A stretch of 64,000 nt of DNA, taken from Bdellovibrionota bacterium. Its GTDB lineage: Bacteria > Bdellovibrionota_C > UBA2361 > JBIKWN01. Within the stretch, counting starts at the first letter, position 1; every line of letters begins with the position of its first letter. The stretch covers positions 912 to 64,911 of the forward strand of contig JBIKWN010000009.1 in NCBI GenBank assembly GCA_044356295.1, in the 5' to 3' direction. Made by a program: the position numbers. Positions 41,401 to 44,400 of the stretch are shown here, piece after piece.

Positions 41401-44400
41401 CGAAAAAAATAAGGTCAAAACGTCTCATGAATCAATCAAACGATACTGTACACTTAAGTTGGGCGGAAGAAAAAATCGCCGTTATTACCCTTAATCAGCC
41501 AGCGTCCTTTAATGCTATGGCTGAGCAGATGGCTTTAGACTTCAAAAAAATCATTGATGAGCTTAGAACTCTCGGCAAAGCTCGAGTTATTATACTCACA
41601 GGAGCCGGAAAAGCGTTCTCAGCTGGTGGTGACCTTGAGATGCTTTATCAAAAAACAAAACTTTCCTCAGATGAGAACTATAAAAGAATGAGGAATTTTT
41701 ATGATTGTTTCCTTGGATTCCGCGCACTTCGTGTTCCTGTTATCTCTGCCATTAACGGAGCAGCAGTTGGAGCAGGGCTGTGTGTAGCCTGTGCAACCAA
41801 TATTAGGATTGCTGCAAAGAGTGCAAAGCTTGGTGTTACATTTACCAAACTTGGTTTGCACCCAGGAATGGCTGCTACTTATTTTTTACCAAAAGTAGTT
41901 GGCTCATCTGCTGCATATGAATTAATGCTCACAGGAAAAATCATTTCAGCAGACGAGGCGCTTCGTATTGGACTTATCTCTCAAATTACTGAAGATGATG
42001 CTGTTTTAGAGAAAGCCATTGAACTTGCGAAAGAGATTCTGGCAACTGGGCCTGAAGTTACCAAACAGCTTCTTGATACATTGGCACTTGTAGATGATGA
42101 GATGCTTGATAAAACGCTTCATCGTGAGGCATCGTGCCAAGCGGTGAATTATTCAGGGGCTGAGTTTTTAGAGGGAATTTCGGCTGCTAAAGAGAAGAGG
42201 AAGGCCTTGTTTAGCTGATCGGTAGGTAGATACAGTTCCATACGATTCTAAGCCCACTACTGTCCGGTAGAAAATAACTGAAAACATTTTTAGTAACGCG
42301 AAGGTCGCGCAGTACGCGAAGGATTTAATTAGATCCTTCGCGTACTTCGCGACCTTCGCGTTACTAAGAGGACGGCGATATAAGCAGTGTATTAATTATA
42401 CTTTCTGCGTAAAGCAAAAAAACTACCAACAGCAACAAGCACTACATGTAATGATGAATAGTAAAAACCATTCATGTTGTCAGTATCGAGTGCTGATTGA
42501 AAAAGTCGCAAACCAATAATTGCAGAAAGCAAAAAAATACCAGCGGCAAGCCGCTGGTTGAATTTCTTTGAGTCCATTTGAATAGAGCTCATAGGTACTA
42601 CGTCTTTTAAGTCTATCGACAGATTAACGAAGCCCAGATTATCGAAGAAGAGTCAGTCTGTCTTGAATTGCATCAGGATCATCTTCATAGGTACGAAGAG
42701 TATTTTGAAGTGCAATCGGATCGAGGTCTAAGTGAGTTGCAACCCAAGCAAATGAAAAAGATTTTTTTGGAGTCATTTTGCCGAAAATCCACTGACGAGC
42801 ACTACGAACGATATGGCGCTCACAATGAGCTGTTCCAAAAGCGTCACAGATTGCGCGGGCTAAAACGGCAGAGAGAAGGTTTCTTTCAGGTTTAACCGGG
42901 GACTGTGCCTCTAAATCTTCATCAATATCAGGTGAAAAACGGTTCGCAGCTGAAGAATTACTCATGTAATAATACCCTTATCTAAGTTTAAGTTCCCTAA
43001 AGCTTTTAGCTGCTTAAAGTAACAAGGTCAACAAAATAATCTATAATTTTTTGAAATTATTTAATAATTTCAGGCAAATGAGGGTTAAAACGCCAGTTTG
43101 TTTTACTAGCTAGATCATTGTTTGTAGAATGACCTAAAATTTGACTTTTTTCGAGTGGTTCTTGATACTTGCCCCTCACATTAAATTGATACTTTATTTT
43201 TGTATATGGCTAAGAAGCTTTTTGTTAGTAATTTAGATTTCGAAATCTCTGTAGATCAACTTCGTGAGATGTTTTCGGAAGTTGGTGGTGTTGTAAGTGT
43301 TGTGATCGCAACTGATCGTGATACGAAGCGTTCTAAAGGATTTGCATTCGTTGAAATGGAAACTGATGAGTCTGCATCAGCAGCCATTGAGTCGATCAAC
43401 AATAAAACTGTTAACGGGCGTCCTGTTAAAGTTGTAGAAGATCGTGGAAAAGGCGGAGGAGATACTCGTGAGTCATCTGGTGGCGGAGAGCGACCTAAGT
43501 TTGAACCACTTCCTGCAATTCAAAGAACTCAACTTTTCAAAAGAAAAAGAAAACTTGATCCTTTCACACAGAGCCCAACAAAAACTGTTGATTACAAAGA
43601 CACAAAACTTCTTTCAAAGTTTATCTCTGAAAGAGGAAAAATTTTAAGCCGTCGTCTTACTGGACTTACTGCTTATAACCAAAGAAAAGTTTCTAAGGCT
43701 ATCAAGCGTGCTCAGAATCTTGGATTAATGCCTTCTTCGACTGTATAAGTTTTAAGATTGTAATTAATAAAAAAAGCTCCTCAACAGGAGCTTTTTTTAT
43801 GTCTCAATATCAATTCTTTGAAACTTACTGAAATGACAGTTTATAAAACTCCACTAATTTCTTTTTCATATCCTGTAAGCTCAACATACCCAATAACAGA
43901 TTCGTCTAATGCATGAACGGCTCCTTCGTAGTAGCTAGTAACCTGTTCATCTGGAAATGTCAGTAATTGATTATCAATTCTTGTCTTTATTGTGACATTT
44001 AAGTTGTTACAAATTTTTGATTCGATCTTCCATTCGGAGGGATATTTAGTCGAATTATGCACCCAATACTTGGTAGGAGTTACAGAATAATCCTTAGCAG
44101 AGAGTTGTGATAAAACTCCATTAGAGATGCAACTTCCAGAATAAAAATCATCTTTGGCTTCTTTAGCACGTACCTTAAATAACATGACCTCAGTTCCATC
44201 TTTCGTAATTAATGAGAACCAATCCCAACCGGTTTGATTTGGTTGTAATGTGTTACTCATAAACTCATGGTCCATCCAGCTGATTCCAGTCAATTTCGTC
44301 TGATTTGTATTTTGATAGAGTTCTGCGTTGGTAGGTATTCGTGAAAAACTTACGTACTGGGAAGCGCAAGAATCGCAACTTCCTTTTTTGCTGTAACCGT

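What a model noticed while it worked through the whole genome (the two positions that open the first line are those of the whole stretch)
43206..43748. Ribosomal protein bS18 fused to an N-terminal RRM RNA-binding domain and moved out of the rpsF-rpsR-rplI operon
The only S18 gene (g00829, 180 aa) encodes an RRM_1 domain (5-75), a ~50-residue linker and then bS18 (126-175). In this genome S6 (g00034) and L9 (g00035) are direct neighbours on C2, so rpsR has left its usual place between them. The ribosome of this lineage should therefore carry an extra RRM domain on the 30S platform.
Evidence so far: pfam.tsv: RRM_1 6e-23 (5-75), Ribosomal_S18 3.5e-26 (126-175) on one ORF; no other Ribosomal_S18 hit. 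genes.tsv: g00034 (S6) C2:4988 and g00035 (L9) C2:5399 adjacent. search_genomes over 41 genomes of the phylum: matches covering both parts (query ~1-178) in one open frame of 177-241 aa in all 33 sampled genomes of the order and in 4-5 of 7 from other orders of the class; one (G009) has S18 alone in a 110-aa frame.
(Added by a program. Inside this text positions count along the whole contig: contig position 912 is position 1 of the stretch shown here. "Call 12" and the like, gene names such as g00115 and contig names such as C1 are that model's own, and its searches are not shown. The text may have been shortened before it was handed on; [...] marks where a part breaks off. The agent that wrote the report below was given it as the finding of a first reader that could run no searches.)

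Follow-up and report, generated by a model that had tools for sequence, protein, structure and literature searches.

The report
RRM domain fused to ribosomal bS18
A whole uncultured freshwater bacterial lineage makes its only copy of the small-subunit ribosomal protein bS18 with an RNA-binding RRM domain tethered to its front end, which should put an extra RNA-binding module beside the spot where the ribosome first grips messenger RNA.

Summary
Window 43206-43748 (+) is one 180-aa ORF. It has a canonical RRM (residues 1-78), a Gly/Ser/Arg-rich disordered linker (about 79-103) and a complete bS18 including its basic N-terminal tail (104-180). It is the only S18 gene in the genome. S6 and L9 are adjacent on another contig with no S18 between them. 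The fusion is neither an assembly artefact nor a local oddity. Independent lake metagenomes carry the same frame. Of 116 genomes of the GTDB phylum that have any S18, 111-113 encode both parts in one frame. One genome (G009) lost the RRM secondarily. The RRM's RNA-binding aromatic residues are conserved as well as the S18 tail, while the linker varies from 20 to 59 residues. Published structures place the bS18 N-terminal tail against the Shine-Dalgarno/anti-SD duplex. The RRM should therefore hang at the mRNA exit and anti-SD site, in a genome with a canonical anti-SD but weak SD use. A Pirellulales clade has the unfused rbp→rpsR gene pair, and published cyanobacterial synteny links rbp genes with S21 and cS24. 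No paper describing the fusion was found. Ribosome incorporation, lack of cleavage and the RNA ligand are all inferred, not shown.

The parts
43206..43748 (+). rpsR fusion gene: 180-aa RRM-linker-bS18 protein (P0001), stop TAA at 43746-43748
   Evidence: ORF and translation; Pfam and NCBIfam; only S18 in the genome; an independent DNA contig from run X2 covers 43038-43683 at 100% identity.
43206..43439 (+). RRM domain, residues 1-78. RNP2 is LFVSNL (5-10) and RNP1 is KGFAFVEM (44-51)
   Evidence: PF00076 E 2e-22. AF2 pLDDT about 90 with a beta-alpha-beta-beta-alpha-beta order. Foldseek TM 0.9 and rmsd about 1 A to Fox1, HuR RRM3-RNA, bacterial PG1 and cS22. F46 is invariant; F6, N9 and F48 are >=90% conserved in 36 fusions.
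43440..43514 (+). Flexible linker, residues about 79-103 (DRGKGGGDTRESSGGGERPKFEPLP)
   Evidence: pLDDT <50 for residues 83-95. Length is 20-59 residues across 36 fusions; mean pairwise identity is 0.30 against 0.51 for the RRM. Pooled composition is G 23%, S 14%, R 14%.
43515..43580 (+). bS18 N-terminal tail, residues about 104-125 (basic and aromatic: IQRTQLFKRKRKLDPF...)
   Evidence: Aligns to residues 3 onward of Lactococcus bS18. Q106 and D118 are invariant; P119 and F120 are >=90% conserved. pLDDT 62-73, extended.
43581..43745 (+). bS18 globular core, residues 126-180
   Evidence: PF01084 at 89 bits. Matches bS18 chains of many solved 70S ribosomes. pLDDT about 90. Mean pairwise identity 0.65.
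43767..43800 (.). Intrinsic-terminator hairpin (A-tract, 15-bp stem, U-tract) between the fusion gene and the convergent downstream gene; probably works in both directions
   Evidence: Sequence. RNA fold -18.3 kcal/mol, z -5.4, 0 of 200 shuffles as stable. The pattern scan did not list it.
43141..43169 (+). Promoter-like site TTGACT-17-GATACT, 37 nt upstream of the ATG (a consensus match only). A second site lies at 43019-43047 (GTAACA-17-TATAAT)
   Evidence: One search found 4 sites where 2.7 +/- 1.5 are expected by chance, so this is weak. No SD core in the 22 nt before the ATG.
42639..42965 (-). Conserved neighbour: 108-aa protein of no known family, transcribed divergently here and co-oriented directly upstream in the other orders
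   Evidence: Present next to the fusion gene in 51 of 61 loci. No Pfam or NCBIfam family. 440 homologues, those named all 'hypothetical', from the same lineage. Mean column identity 78%.

Best explanation
This is the lineage's only bS18 gene, and it encodes bS18 with a working RRM tethered to its N-terminus by a 20-59-residue disordered linker. The fusion arose once, or at most very few times, at the base of this uncultured freshwater phylum. The likely route was loss of the stop codon between a glycine-rich rbp gene and a downstream rpsR; the Gly-rich Rbp tail became the linker. It has been kept under purifying selection ever since. SHOWN: the single frame; the single S18 copy; phylum-wide conservation; conserved RNP1/RNP2 aromatic residues; a predicted two-module architecture with a disordered linker; retention of the complete bS18 including its basic tail. 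INFERRED: the protein assembles into the 30S platform through its bS18 part. In solved ribosomes the bS18 N-terminal tail lies against the SD/anti-SD duplex at the mRNA exit, so the RRM would be held within a few nanometres of the 16S 3' tail, bS21, bS6, uS11 and the bS1 site. There it most likely binds single-stranded RNA emerging 5' of the start codon. It would act as a permanently ribosome-bound capture or standby, or chaperone, module for the mostly SD-poor, AT-rich leaders of this lineage. The domain is slightly acidic, so it probably has low affinity on its own, and tethering supplies the high local concentration.
For: Gene and domains. Sole S18. Not an artefact: independent DNA contigs bridge RRM-linker-S18 at 100% identity (X2 43038-43683; X9 43432-43670). 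The best 120 listed of 630 homologues all carry PF00076 plus PF01084. Phylum tally over 124 genomes: 116 have an S18. Of those, 104 show one full-length match in one stop-free frame, G121 shows two matches in one 258-aa frame, 6 more were verified by reading the frame, and 2 more (G004, G032) are likely but unread. Conservation: RRM identity 0.51 equals the S18 tail at 0.51, against 0.30 for the linker; F46 invariant and F6, N9, F48 >=90% conserved. Structure: RRM and S18 core pLDDT about 90, linker <50, pTM 0.43; RRM TM 0.9 to RNA-bound RRMs. [quoted passage not shown] Translation context: the 16S ends in GGATCACCTCCTTT, but only 349 of 1752 long ORFs have an SD core at -20..-4 against 149 in a background window, whereas E. 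coli gives 44 of 88 against 1 of 88 by the same script. Independent gene-neighbour support: an unfused, co-oriented rbp→rpsR pair occurs in a Pirellulales clade (13 of 30 best rbp loci; 3 more). Cyanobacterial Gly-rich rbp genes sit upstream of the gene for cS24, a protein near the anti-SD (PMC13640635 section 5). An rbp plus S21 cluster is known only from the title of Sato 1994, seen in a reference list.
Against: No call shows the protein in a ribosome, or uncleaved. The only RNA-library contig (43340-43490, depth 2) covers RRM to linker only, and DNA carry-over is possible. One genome, G009, has bS18 with a linker remnant but no RRM, so the RRM is dispensable in cis in at least one lineage. 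bS1 (six S1 domains) and bS21 are present, so no obvious gap exists for the RRM to fill. The RNA ligand is unknown: no enriched leader motif emerged beyond weak SD-like and -10-like words. Low SD use is common in many phyla without such a fusion, so that link is circumstantial. 28 of 31 free-RRM loci from other phyla have no S18, S21 or S6 nearby, and 0 of 37 sampled Planctomycetota S18 loci outside the Pirellulales clade have an RRM nearby. The linkage is therefore limited to certain lineages. The RRM tree leaves a single origin unresolved.
Confidence: 0.5

Rival explanations
1. Anti-SD gate. The tethered RRM binds the single-stranded, pyrimidine-rich 3' tail of 16S rRNA (…CACCUCCUUU) in cis and limits or tunes SD pairing. 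This would be a different structural route to the anti-SD occlusion that Bacteroidia achieve with bS21, bS18 and bS6.
For: The canonical anti-SD is kept while SD use is weak. This combination defines the Bacteroidia case, where the 3' tail lies along bS6/bS18 (PMC7797042). The bS18 N-terminus is the protein element closest to nucleotides 1536-1539 (PMC4611024). bS21, the other occluding protein in Bacteroidia, appears to have gained an N-terminal extension in the window's order.
Against: SD cores are still enriched about 2.3-fold at the right spacing (349 against 149), so the anti-SD is not blind. There is no strong SD upstream of the fusion gene: only 2 of 14 relatives have even a core. That differs from rpsU and rpsR in Bacteroidetes. 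No binding data exist.
Confidence: 0.17
2. Assembly or autoregulation role. The RRM acts before or outside translation. It could be an intramolecular chaperone that helps bS18 (with bS6) find the 16S central domain. Or it could be a sensor that binds its own mRNA to set bS18 output, now that rpsR is uncoupled from the rpsF operon.
For: rpsR is monocistronic here, with its own promoter-like sites and terminator. It is never near S6 or L9 in 61 loci, so the usual S6:S18 operon feedback cannot apply. No rpsF-leader RNA family was found on C2. Bacterial and plant Gly-rich RRM proteins are described as RNA chaperones in abstracts seen.
Against: The leader of the fusion gene is not conserved among 14 relatives. 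Rfam finds nothing above gathering score around the gene. A role needed only during assembly or regulation would not obviously require fusion to be kept in more than 110 genomes.
Confidence: 0.15
3. Co-expression only. The polyprotein is cleaved in the linker, or the RRM works as a free Rbp-like factor that merely shares a transcript and translation rate with bS18.
For: The linker is disordered and hypervariable, so it would be accessible to proteases. G009 lives with an RRM-less bS18 and one free RRM gene. Most genomes of the phylum also keep free RRM genes.
Against: No conserved cleavage motif lies in the linker. The only conserved junction segment (EPLPPIQR / PMGYFRAQP) continues into the S18 tail. 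There is no conserved internal Met or start at the junction. Single-frame fusion was retained in 111-113 of 116 genomes despite free RRM paralogues, which argues that the covalent link itself is selected.
Confidence: 0.08
4. Artefact: a mis-assembly, frameshift or mis-called ORF joining two separate genes.
For: The genome is a 128-contig metagenome bin.
Against: Independent runs from other studies carry the identical junction. There are hundreds of homologues. More than 100 genomes carry the same frame with no internal stop.
Confidence: 0.01

Closest known systems
Canonical bacterial bS18 (for example Lactococcus lactis 5myj chain AR, and E. coli and B. subtilis 70S structures)
   Same: Residues 104-180 are a complete bS18: basic N-terminal tail plus core, 3.6e-19 to 5myj_AR over query 105-176. 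It is the single copy in the genome.
   Different: About 103 extra N-terminal residues (RRM plus linker). The gene is monocistronic and not between rpsF and rplI.
Free-standing bacterial glycine-rich RRM proteins (cyanobacterial Rbp1/RbpA type; Bacteroides RRM-1 proteins; NCBIfam NF058537 Rbp_regulator)
   Same: A single RRM with canonical RNP1 and RNP2 followed by a Gly-rich segment. The best non-eukaryotic family hit is NF058537 at 86 bits. The genome's own free paralogue has an RRM plus a G/R-rich tail. Cyanobacterial Rbp3 co-purifies with ribosomes (PMC12232666).
   Different: Here the Gly-rich tail leads into a ribosomal protein. The score is below the NF058537 cut-off of 100. Free Rbps are exchangeable and often cold-induced, whereas this one would be stoichiometric with the ribosome.
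Chloroplast cS22 (PSRP2) and mitoribosomal mS86: RRM-containing proteins of organellar small subunits
   Same: RRM domains that are true small-subunit components. cS22 chains 5x8p_v and 5mmj_v match at E about 1e-20, and mS86 (9gyt_k) at 1e-13. The structural match to 5mmj_v has TM 0.91.
   Different: cS22 has two RRMs, is a separate protein, and sits at the subunit foot, where it compensates for rRNA deletions (PMC5737520). Here there is one RRM covalently attached to bS18 at the platform, and the 16S is full length (1520 nt matched to model positions 1-1533).
Anti-SD sequestration by bS21/bS18/bS6 in Bacteroidia
   Same: A canonical anti-SD is retained with low SD use, and lineage-specific changes occur in the proteins that surround the 16S 3' tail.
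   Different: In Bacteroidia the effect comes from side-chain changes in normal-sized proteins, and rpsU or rpsR carry strong SDs. Here a whole domain is added, SD enrichment is weak but present, and the gene has no SD.
bS1, the OB-fold mRNA-capturing protein at the platform
   Same: It is the proposed functional analogy: a flexible single-stranded-RNA-binding module next to the mRNA exit that serves SD-poor leaders. S1 cross-links near S18 (PMC3296737).
   Different: Unrelated fold. bS1 binds through uS2 and is present here as a normal six-domain protein.
rbp-ribosomal-gene neighbourhoods: Pirellulales rbp→rpsR (found here), cyanobacterial rbp→cS24 gene, and rbp+rpsU
   Same: A Gly-rich RRM gene lies directly upstream of, and co-oriented with, a gene for a small 30S protein located near the anti-SD (the Sato 1994 title only).
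   Different: Those are separate genes. In this phylum the two are one polypeptide. The Pirellulales RRMs form their own clade (91/91; the window genome's free RRM, a long branch, also falls inside it), so the two events are independent.

Membership tests
bS18 (Pfam PF01084 Ribosomal_S18; NCBIfam TIGR00165 equivalog) | Sequence scores above the curated family cut-offs | tested here: met
   PF01084 at 89.2 bits against 21; TIGR00165 at 80 bits against 38.75.
bS18 (Pfam PF01084 Ribosomal_S18; NCBIfam TIGR00165 equivalog) | Full-length homology to bS18 chains of solved ribosomes, including the basic N-terminal tail | tested here: met
   Query 105-176 aligns to 5myj_AR residues 3-74, with many other 70S bS18 chains also matched. 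The tail KRKRK...DPF is conserved.
bS18 (Pfam PF01084 Ribosomal_S18; NCBIfam TIGR00165 equivalog) | It is the genome's functional (only) copy | tested here: met
   One S18 match in a 93.6%-complete genome. The same single-copy pattern holds in relatives.
bS18 (Pfam PF01084 Ribosomal_S18; NCBIfam TIGR00165 equivalog) | Physical presence in the 30S subunit bound with bS6 to the central domain | not testable with these tools
   No ribosome preparation or proteome of this lineage is available.
rpsF-(ssb/priB)-rpsR-rplI operon arrangement | rpsR located between rpsF and rplI | tested here: not met
   S6 and L9 are adjacent on C2, 36 nt apart. S6 and L9 are absent from the flanks of the fusion gene in 0 of 61 loci.
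RRM (Pfam PF00076 RRM_1) | Family score, the RNP1 [RK]G[FY][GA][FY][ILV]x[FY/M] and RNP2 [ILV][FY][ILV]xN[LF] motifs (consensus recalled), and the beta-alpha-beta-beta-alpha-beta fold | tested here: met
   79.3 bits against 20.7. KGFAFVEM and LFVSNL are present and conserved. Predicted strand and helix order, with TM 0.9 to solved RRMs.
RRM (Pfam PF00076 RRM_1) | Binds single-stranded RNA | not testable with these tools
   Inferred only from conserved aromatic residues on the beta-sheet.
NCBIfam NF058537 Rbp_regulator (free bacterial RRM regulators) | Score above the curated cut-off | tested here: not met
   86.2 bits against a cut-off of 100. It resembles the family but is not filed as a member.
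cS22/PSRP2-type ribosomal RRM proteins | Two tandem RRMs in a stand-alone protein at the small-subunit foot | tested here: not met
   There is one RRM, fused to bS18. The cS22 location is taken from PMC5737520.

The most novel reading that the evidence does not exclude
The fusion is a Rosetta stone for the whole class of bacterial glycine-rich RRM proteins, whose function has been open since the 1990s. These proteins would normally work as exchangeable, stress-tuned accessory factors of the 30S platform. They would dock beside bS18, bS21 and cS24 at the anti-SD and mRNA exit site to recruit or unfold SD-poor leaders. This phylum has made one of them a permanent ribosomal domain. Together with an order-specific N-terminal extension of bS21, that remodels the initiation face of its ribosome.
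Probability: 0.22. Interest if true: 0.85.

Novelty: new variant of a known kind. Interest (0 to 1): 0.68.

Why it matters
Lineage-specific ribosomal components near the mRNA exit (bS21 variants, bS22, cS23, cS24, Bacteroidia anti-SD occlusion) are currently reshaping ideas about how bacteria choose start codons without Shine-Dalgarno pairing. A whole phylum whose only bS18 carries an RNA-binding domain at exactly that site would be the first such case in free-living bacteria that I could find. It gives a concrete, testable location for the action of bacterial RRM proteins. G009, which has lost the RRM, offers a natural control. The hypothesis can be tested with hybrid ribosomes without culturing the organism.

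Tried and rejected
(1) Rfam scans around the gene and over the S6-L9 locus gave nothing above gathering score. The weak hits lie on the terminator hairpin.

(2) I looked for a conserved leader or SD upstream of the fusion gene. My start-finding pattern located only 14 of 42 sequences (the window plus loci L005-L045). Among those the sequence is not conserved, and 2 of 14 have an SD core.

(3) The leaderless-mRNA idea gave only a modest excess of -10-like hexamers at -16..-10 (180 against 101 of 1747 ORFs), so I did not pursue it.

(4) The wide representative search was swamped by eukaryotic multi-RRM proteins. Only about four fusion-like clusters were visible in the top 150, so it cannot say whether other phyla have independent fusions.

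(5) The RRM-domain tree (80 columns) has an unresolved backbone and an unsettled bootstrap. A single origin of the fused RRM is neither shown nor rejected.

(6) The RNA-library run X15 gave one 151-nt contig at depth 2 covering RRM to linker only. That is not usable as proof of transcription or of an uncut transcript.

(7) Complex prediction on the fusion protein plus the 108-aa conserved neighbour returned 'no answer' (score 0.00). This is not evidence either way.

(8) The 108-aa neighbour has no Pfam or NCBIfam family, only 'hypothetical' clusters in the Atlas, a low-confidence all-alpha model (pLDDT 64) and no Foldseek match.

(9) Planctomycetota outside the Pirellulales clade: 0 of 30 plus 0 of 7 S18 loci have an RRM within 1.5 kb.

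(11) I did not establish the GTDB name of the phylum, nor whether cultured Bdellovibrio or Oligoflexus species carry the fusion. None of the 41 full-length loci bears a genus or species name.
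Full report
**1. What is in the window**

The stated coordinates are valid window coordinates; the window is G000:C38:912-64911. An ATG at 43206 opens a 180-aa ORF that ends at TAA 43746-43748. Pfam finds RRM_1 at residues 5-75 (2e-22) and Ribosomal_S18 at 126-175 (1.8e-25), both far above their curated cut-offs. NCBIfam's S18 equivalog TIGR00165 covers 111-176.

A sequence search of the PDB aligns residues 105-176 to residues 3-74 of Lactococcus bS18 and to many other 70S bS18 chains. The bS18 part is therefore complete and includes its basic N-terminal tail. 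The true spacer is only about 25 residues (79-103), not about 50.

A 15-bp hairpin with flanking A- and U-tracts follows the stop codon (43767-43800; -18.3 kcal/mol, z -5.4). The neighbouring genes are on the opposite strand, so the gene is monocistronic. There is no SD core in the 22 nt before the ATG.

**2. Only copy, outside the usual operon**

The genome is 93.6% complete in 128 contigs and has one S18 match, this gene. S6 lies on C2. That locus reads L25/Ctc, Pth, S6 and L9, with 36 nt between S6 and L9. In 61 loci from relatives, S6 and L9 are never within the flanks of the fusion gene (0 of 61). The genome also has a free RRM gene (RRM plus G/R-rich tail, 158 aa), bS21, a six-domain bS1 and a full-length 16S.

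**3. Not an artefact, and very widespread**

- Contigs from independent lake-metagenome runs bridge the junction at 100% identity: X2 covers 43038-43683 and X9 covers 43432-43670.
- The protein database returns 630 homologues. The best 120 listed all carry PF00076 plus PF01084 and are 176-242 aa long.
- 41 loci in species-representative genomes encode the full length at 64-91% identity. All come from bins labelled Bdellovibrionota, Bdellovibrionales, Oligoflexia, Deltaproteobacteria or similar, and none has a species name.

Searching all 124 genomes held for the GTDB phylum (one class, 36 families, 64 genera) gave this tally:

| Result | Genomes |
|---|---|
| One full-length match in one stop-free frame | 104 |
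| Two matches in one 258-aa frame (G121) | 1 |
| Listed as 'S18 only', but read as fusions with long linkers | 6 |
| Likely fusions, frames of 200 and 222 aa, unread (G004, G032) | 2 |
| TAA between the two parts (G076) | 1 |
| S18 cut by a contig end (G006) | 1 |
| S18 without RRM (G009) | 1 |
| No S18 hit at all (55-90% complete) | 8 |

So 111-113 of the 116 genomes with any S18 are fused.

G009 keeps a linker remnant and the same upstream neighbour gene. Its family-mates G010 and G011 are fused, and it retains one free RRM gene. This is a secondary loss of the RRM.

**4. Anatomy and selection**

In an alignment of 36 fusions spanning the phylum (A1), the RNP1 and RNP2 aromatic residues are conserved: F46 is invariant, and F6, N9 and F48 are at least 90% conserved.

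| Region | Mean pairwise identity |
|---|---|
| RRM | 0.51 |
| Linker | 0.30 |
| S18 tail | 0.51 |
| S18 core | 0.65 |

Linker length ranges from 20 to 59 residues. Its pooled composition is G 23%, S 14% and R 14%. The RRM is slightly acidic (mean net charge -1.9) and the S18 part strongly basic (+11.6).

AlphaFold2 on A1 gives two confident modules, both at pLDDT about 90: a beta-alpha-beta-beta-alpha-beta RRM and the S18 core. Residues 83-95 are below 50 and pTM is 0.43, which means no fixed mutual orientation. Foldseek superposes the RRM on RNA-bound RRMs (HuR RRM3, Fox1), a bacterial RRM (7jly) and chloroplast cS22 at TM about 0.9 and rmsd about 1 A.

A conserved segment (EPLPPIQR…LF in the window's order; PMGYFRAQPLDLG in the others) leads into the basic KKKK.DPF tail.

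**5. Where the RRM would sit**

This step rests on the literature and on inference.

- The review PMC4611024 (section 6 passages) states that the SD-aSD duplex lies in a cleft bounded by S11 and S18. [quoted passage not shown]
- PMC7797042 (abstract and passages) shows the 16S 3' end lying along a bS6/bS18 groove in Flavobacterium johnsoniae.
- PMC3296737 (introduction) cites S1 cross-links near S18.

An RRM on a 20-59-residue leash from that tail can therefore reach the SD chamber, the mRNA exit, the 16S 3' tail, bS21, bS6, uS11 and the bS1 site. Nothing in my calls shows that the protein is in the ribosome or uncleaved. The argument is that no other bS18 exists, and that both halves and their covalent link are conserved.

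**6. Translation context**

The 16S ends in GGATCACCTCCTTT. With a crude but uniform script (first ATG of ORFs of at least 200 aa; GGAG, GAGG or AGGA at -20..-4):

| DNA | With SD core | Background window |
|---|---|---|
| This genome | 349 of 1752 (19.9%) | 149 |
| Relatives' loci | 38 of 129 | 16 |
| Pirellulales loci | 9 of 47 | 7 |
| E. coli, 150 kb | 44 of 88 | 1 |

Leaders are AT-rich, and the most enriched words are weak SD-like ones such as TAAGGA and AGGAG. A small excess of -10-like boxes occurs at leaderless spacing. Hfq was not found in this 93.6%-complete genome, and CsrA is present. The lineage therefore keeps the anti-SD but uses SD pairing sparingly. This fits either an mRNA-capture role or an anti-SD-gating role for the RRM, but it is circumstantial.

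**7. Independent gene-neighbour evidence**

Eight Planctomycetota loci matched both halves of the query. Reading three of them shows separate genes: an rbp (RRM plus Gly-rich tail, about 123 aa) directly upstream of, and co-oriented with, rpsR. The gap is about 110-125 nt if rpsR starts at MPPFGK. Each of the three genomes checked has that single S18.

In 61 genomes of that order, 13 of the 30 best rbp loci have rpsR downstream on the same strand, and these are 13 of the 17 closest orthologues. Three further Planctomycetota loci show the same arrangement.

The pairing is not general:
- 0 of 30 S18 loci sampled across the phylum have an RRM nearby.
- 0 of 7 long-frame S18 loci have one.
- 28 of 31 free-RRM loci from other phyla have no S18, S21 or S6 in their flanks.

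In the RRM tree, the Pirellulales RRMs form a clade of their own, apart from the fused RRMs (91/91 for all 21 Pirellulales rows; 98/96 for the inner clade holding all 13 paired ones). The window genome's free RRM (L004, a long branch) also falls inside that clade. The fused RRMs form two strongly supported groups, 100/99 and 100/93, on an unresolved backbone.

Published parallels:
- In cyanobacteria, the most frequent upstream, co-oriented neighbour of the gene for cS24 is a Gly-rich RRM gene. cS24 is a 55-aa ribosomal protein reported close to the anti-SD (PMC13640635, passages of sections 5, 13 and 16).
- The same paper reports that free Rbp3 co-immunoprecipitates the whole ribosome. It does not claim direct binding.

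**8. Comparison with known systems and novelty**

RRM-bearing small-subunit proteins are known in organelles. cS22 has two RRMs, stands alone, and sits at the subunit foot where it compensates for rRNA deletions (PMC5737520 abstract and section 13). mS86 is known to me only from the PDB title. Here the 16S is full length and the RRM is covalently attached at the platform.

Five literature searches found no description of an RRM-S18 fusion: 'ribosomal protein S18' + RRM + fusion + bacteria; Ribosomal_S18 + RRM_1; Bdellovibrionota + 'ribosomal protein' + 'RNA recognition motif'; rpsR + RRM; bS18 + anti-SD + bS21 + bS6. Database annotators simply call it 'ribosomal protein S18', or in one case 'cold-inducible RNA-binding protein'. 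Subscription-only papers and automatic domain-architecture listings such as InterPro could not be searched.

I file it as a new variant of a known kind: a true bS18 with a lineage-wide added RNA-binding domain.

**9. Verdict**

The mechanism I think most likely (confidence 0.5) is a ribosome-resident RRM tethered at the SD chamber and mRNA exit that engages single-stranded RNA there, most likely mRNA leaders. The rivals are anti-SD gating (0.17), assembly or autoregulation (0.15), cleavage or mere co-expression (0.08) and artefact (0.01).

Noticed in passing
window 42639-42965 (-); also L098 1455-1775, L099 2704-3021 and others: A 108-aa protein of no known family is a conserved neighbour of the fusion gene in 51 of 61 loci. 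It is divergent in the window's order and co-oriented directly upstream in the other orders. It is more conserved than the fusion itself (mean column identity 78%; invariant C40, C48, H51, W59). It has 440 homologues, all from the same lineage, and those that carry a name are called 'hypothetical'.
   Followed up: partly
L085 1453-1776 (-) = G000:C17, downstream of the bL19 gene (L085 1809-2234 -): bS21 appears to carry an order-specific N-terminal extension. The frame is open for about 39 codons upstream of the canonical Met, through RRPRKDYFQNSGGAAGANPQAERPRGGP. In most sampled genomes of the window's order the match starts at query residue 6-32 in frames of about 90-190 aa. In the other orders, and in family f4, it starts at 37-40 in frames of 66-96 aa. 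This would be a second change on the same face of the 30S platform.
   Followed up: partly
L062 about 4001-4765, L068 752-1525, L069 about 4001-4771; L150-L166: An unfused, co-oriented rbp (RRM plus Gly-rich tail) → rpsR gene pair is conserved in a clade of Pirellulales. It occurs in 13 of the 30 best rbp loci from 61 genomes, and is absent from 37 S18 loci sampled elsewhere in the phylum.
   Followed up: yes
L098 1956-2279 (+) (genome G009): One member of the phylum has bS18 with a linker remnant (GTG start, 107 aa) but no RRM, while its family-mates are fused. This is a natural RRM-deletion control.
   Followed up: yes
L004 1246-1722 (-) = G000:C82: The genome's second RRM gene encodes a 158-aa free protein with a long G/R-rich (RGG-like) tail. 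Most genomes of the phylum also keep one or more free RRM genes.
   Followed up: partly
whole genome G000: SD usage is weak (349 of 1752 against a background of 149) despite a canonical anti-SD. There is a small excess of -10-like hexamers at leaderless spacing (180 against 101). Hfq was not found in a 93.6%-complete genome, and CsrA is present.
   Followed up: partly
window 43841-44914 (-): The convergent downstream gene encodes a CrtC N-terminal lipocalin plus Lipocalin_9 protein (357 aa). It is not a conserved neighbour (0 of 61 loci).
   Followed up: partly
L068 (record titled uncultured Chitinophagaceae): Its rbp and rpsR are nearly identical to those of Pirellulales records: its rbp is 99% identical to G124's. 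The record's taxon label looks inconsistent with its content.
   Followed up: no
L002 1492-1866 (+) = G000:C2: bS6 ends in an acidic tail (…SDSDDDYGDLDLEY). No rpsF-leader RNA family was detected upstream.
   Followed up: no
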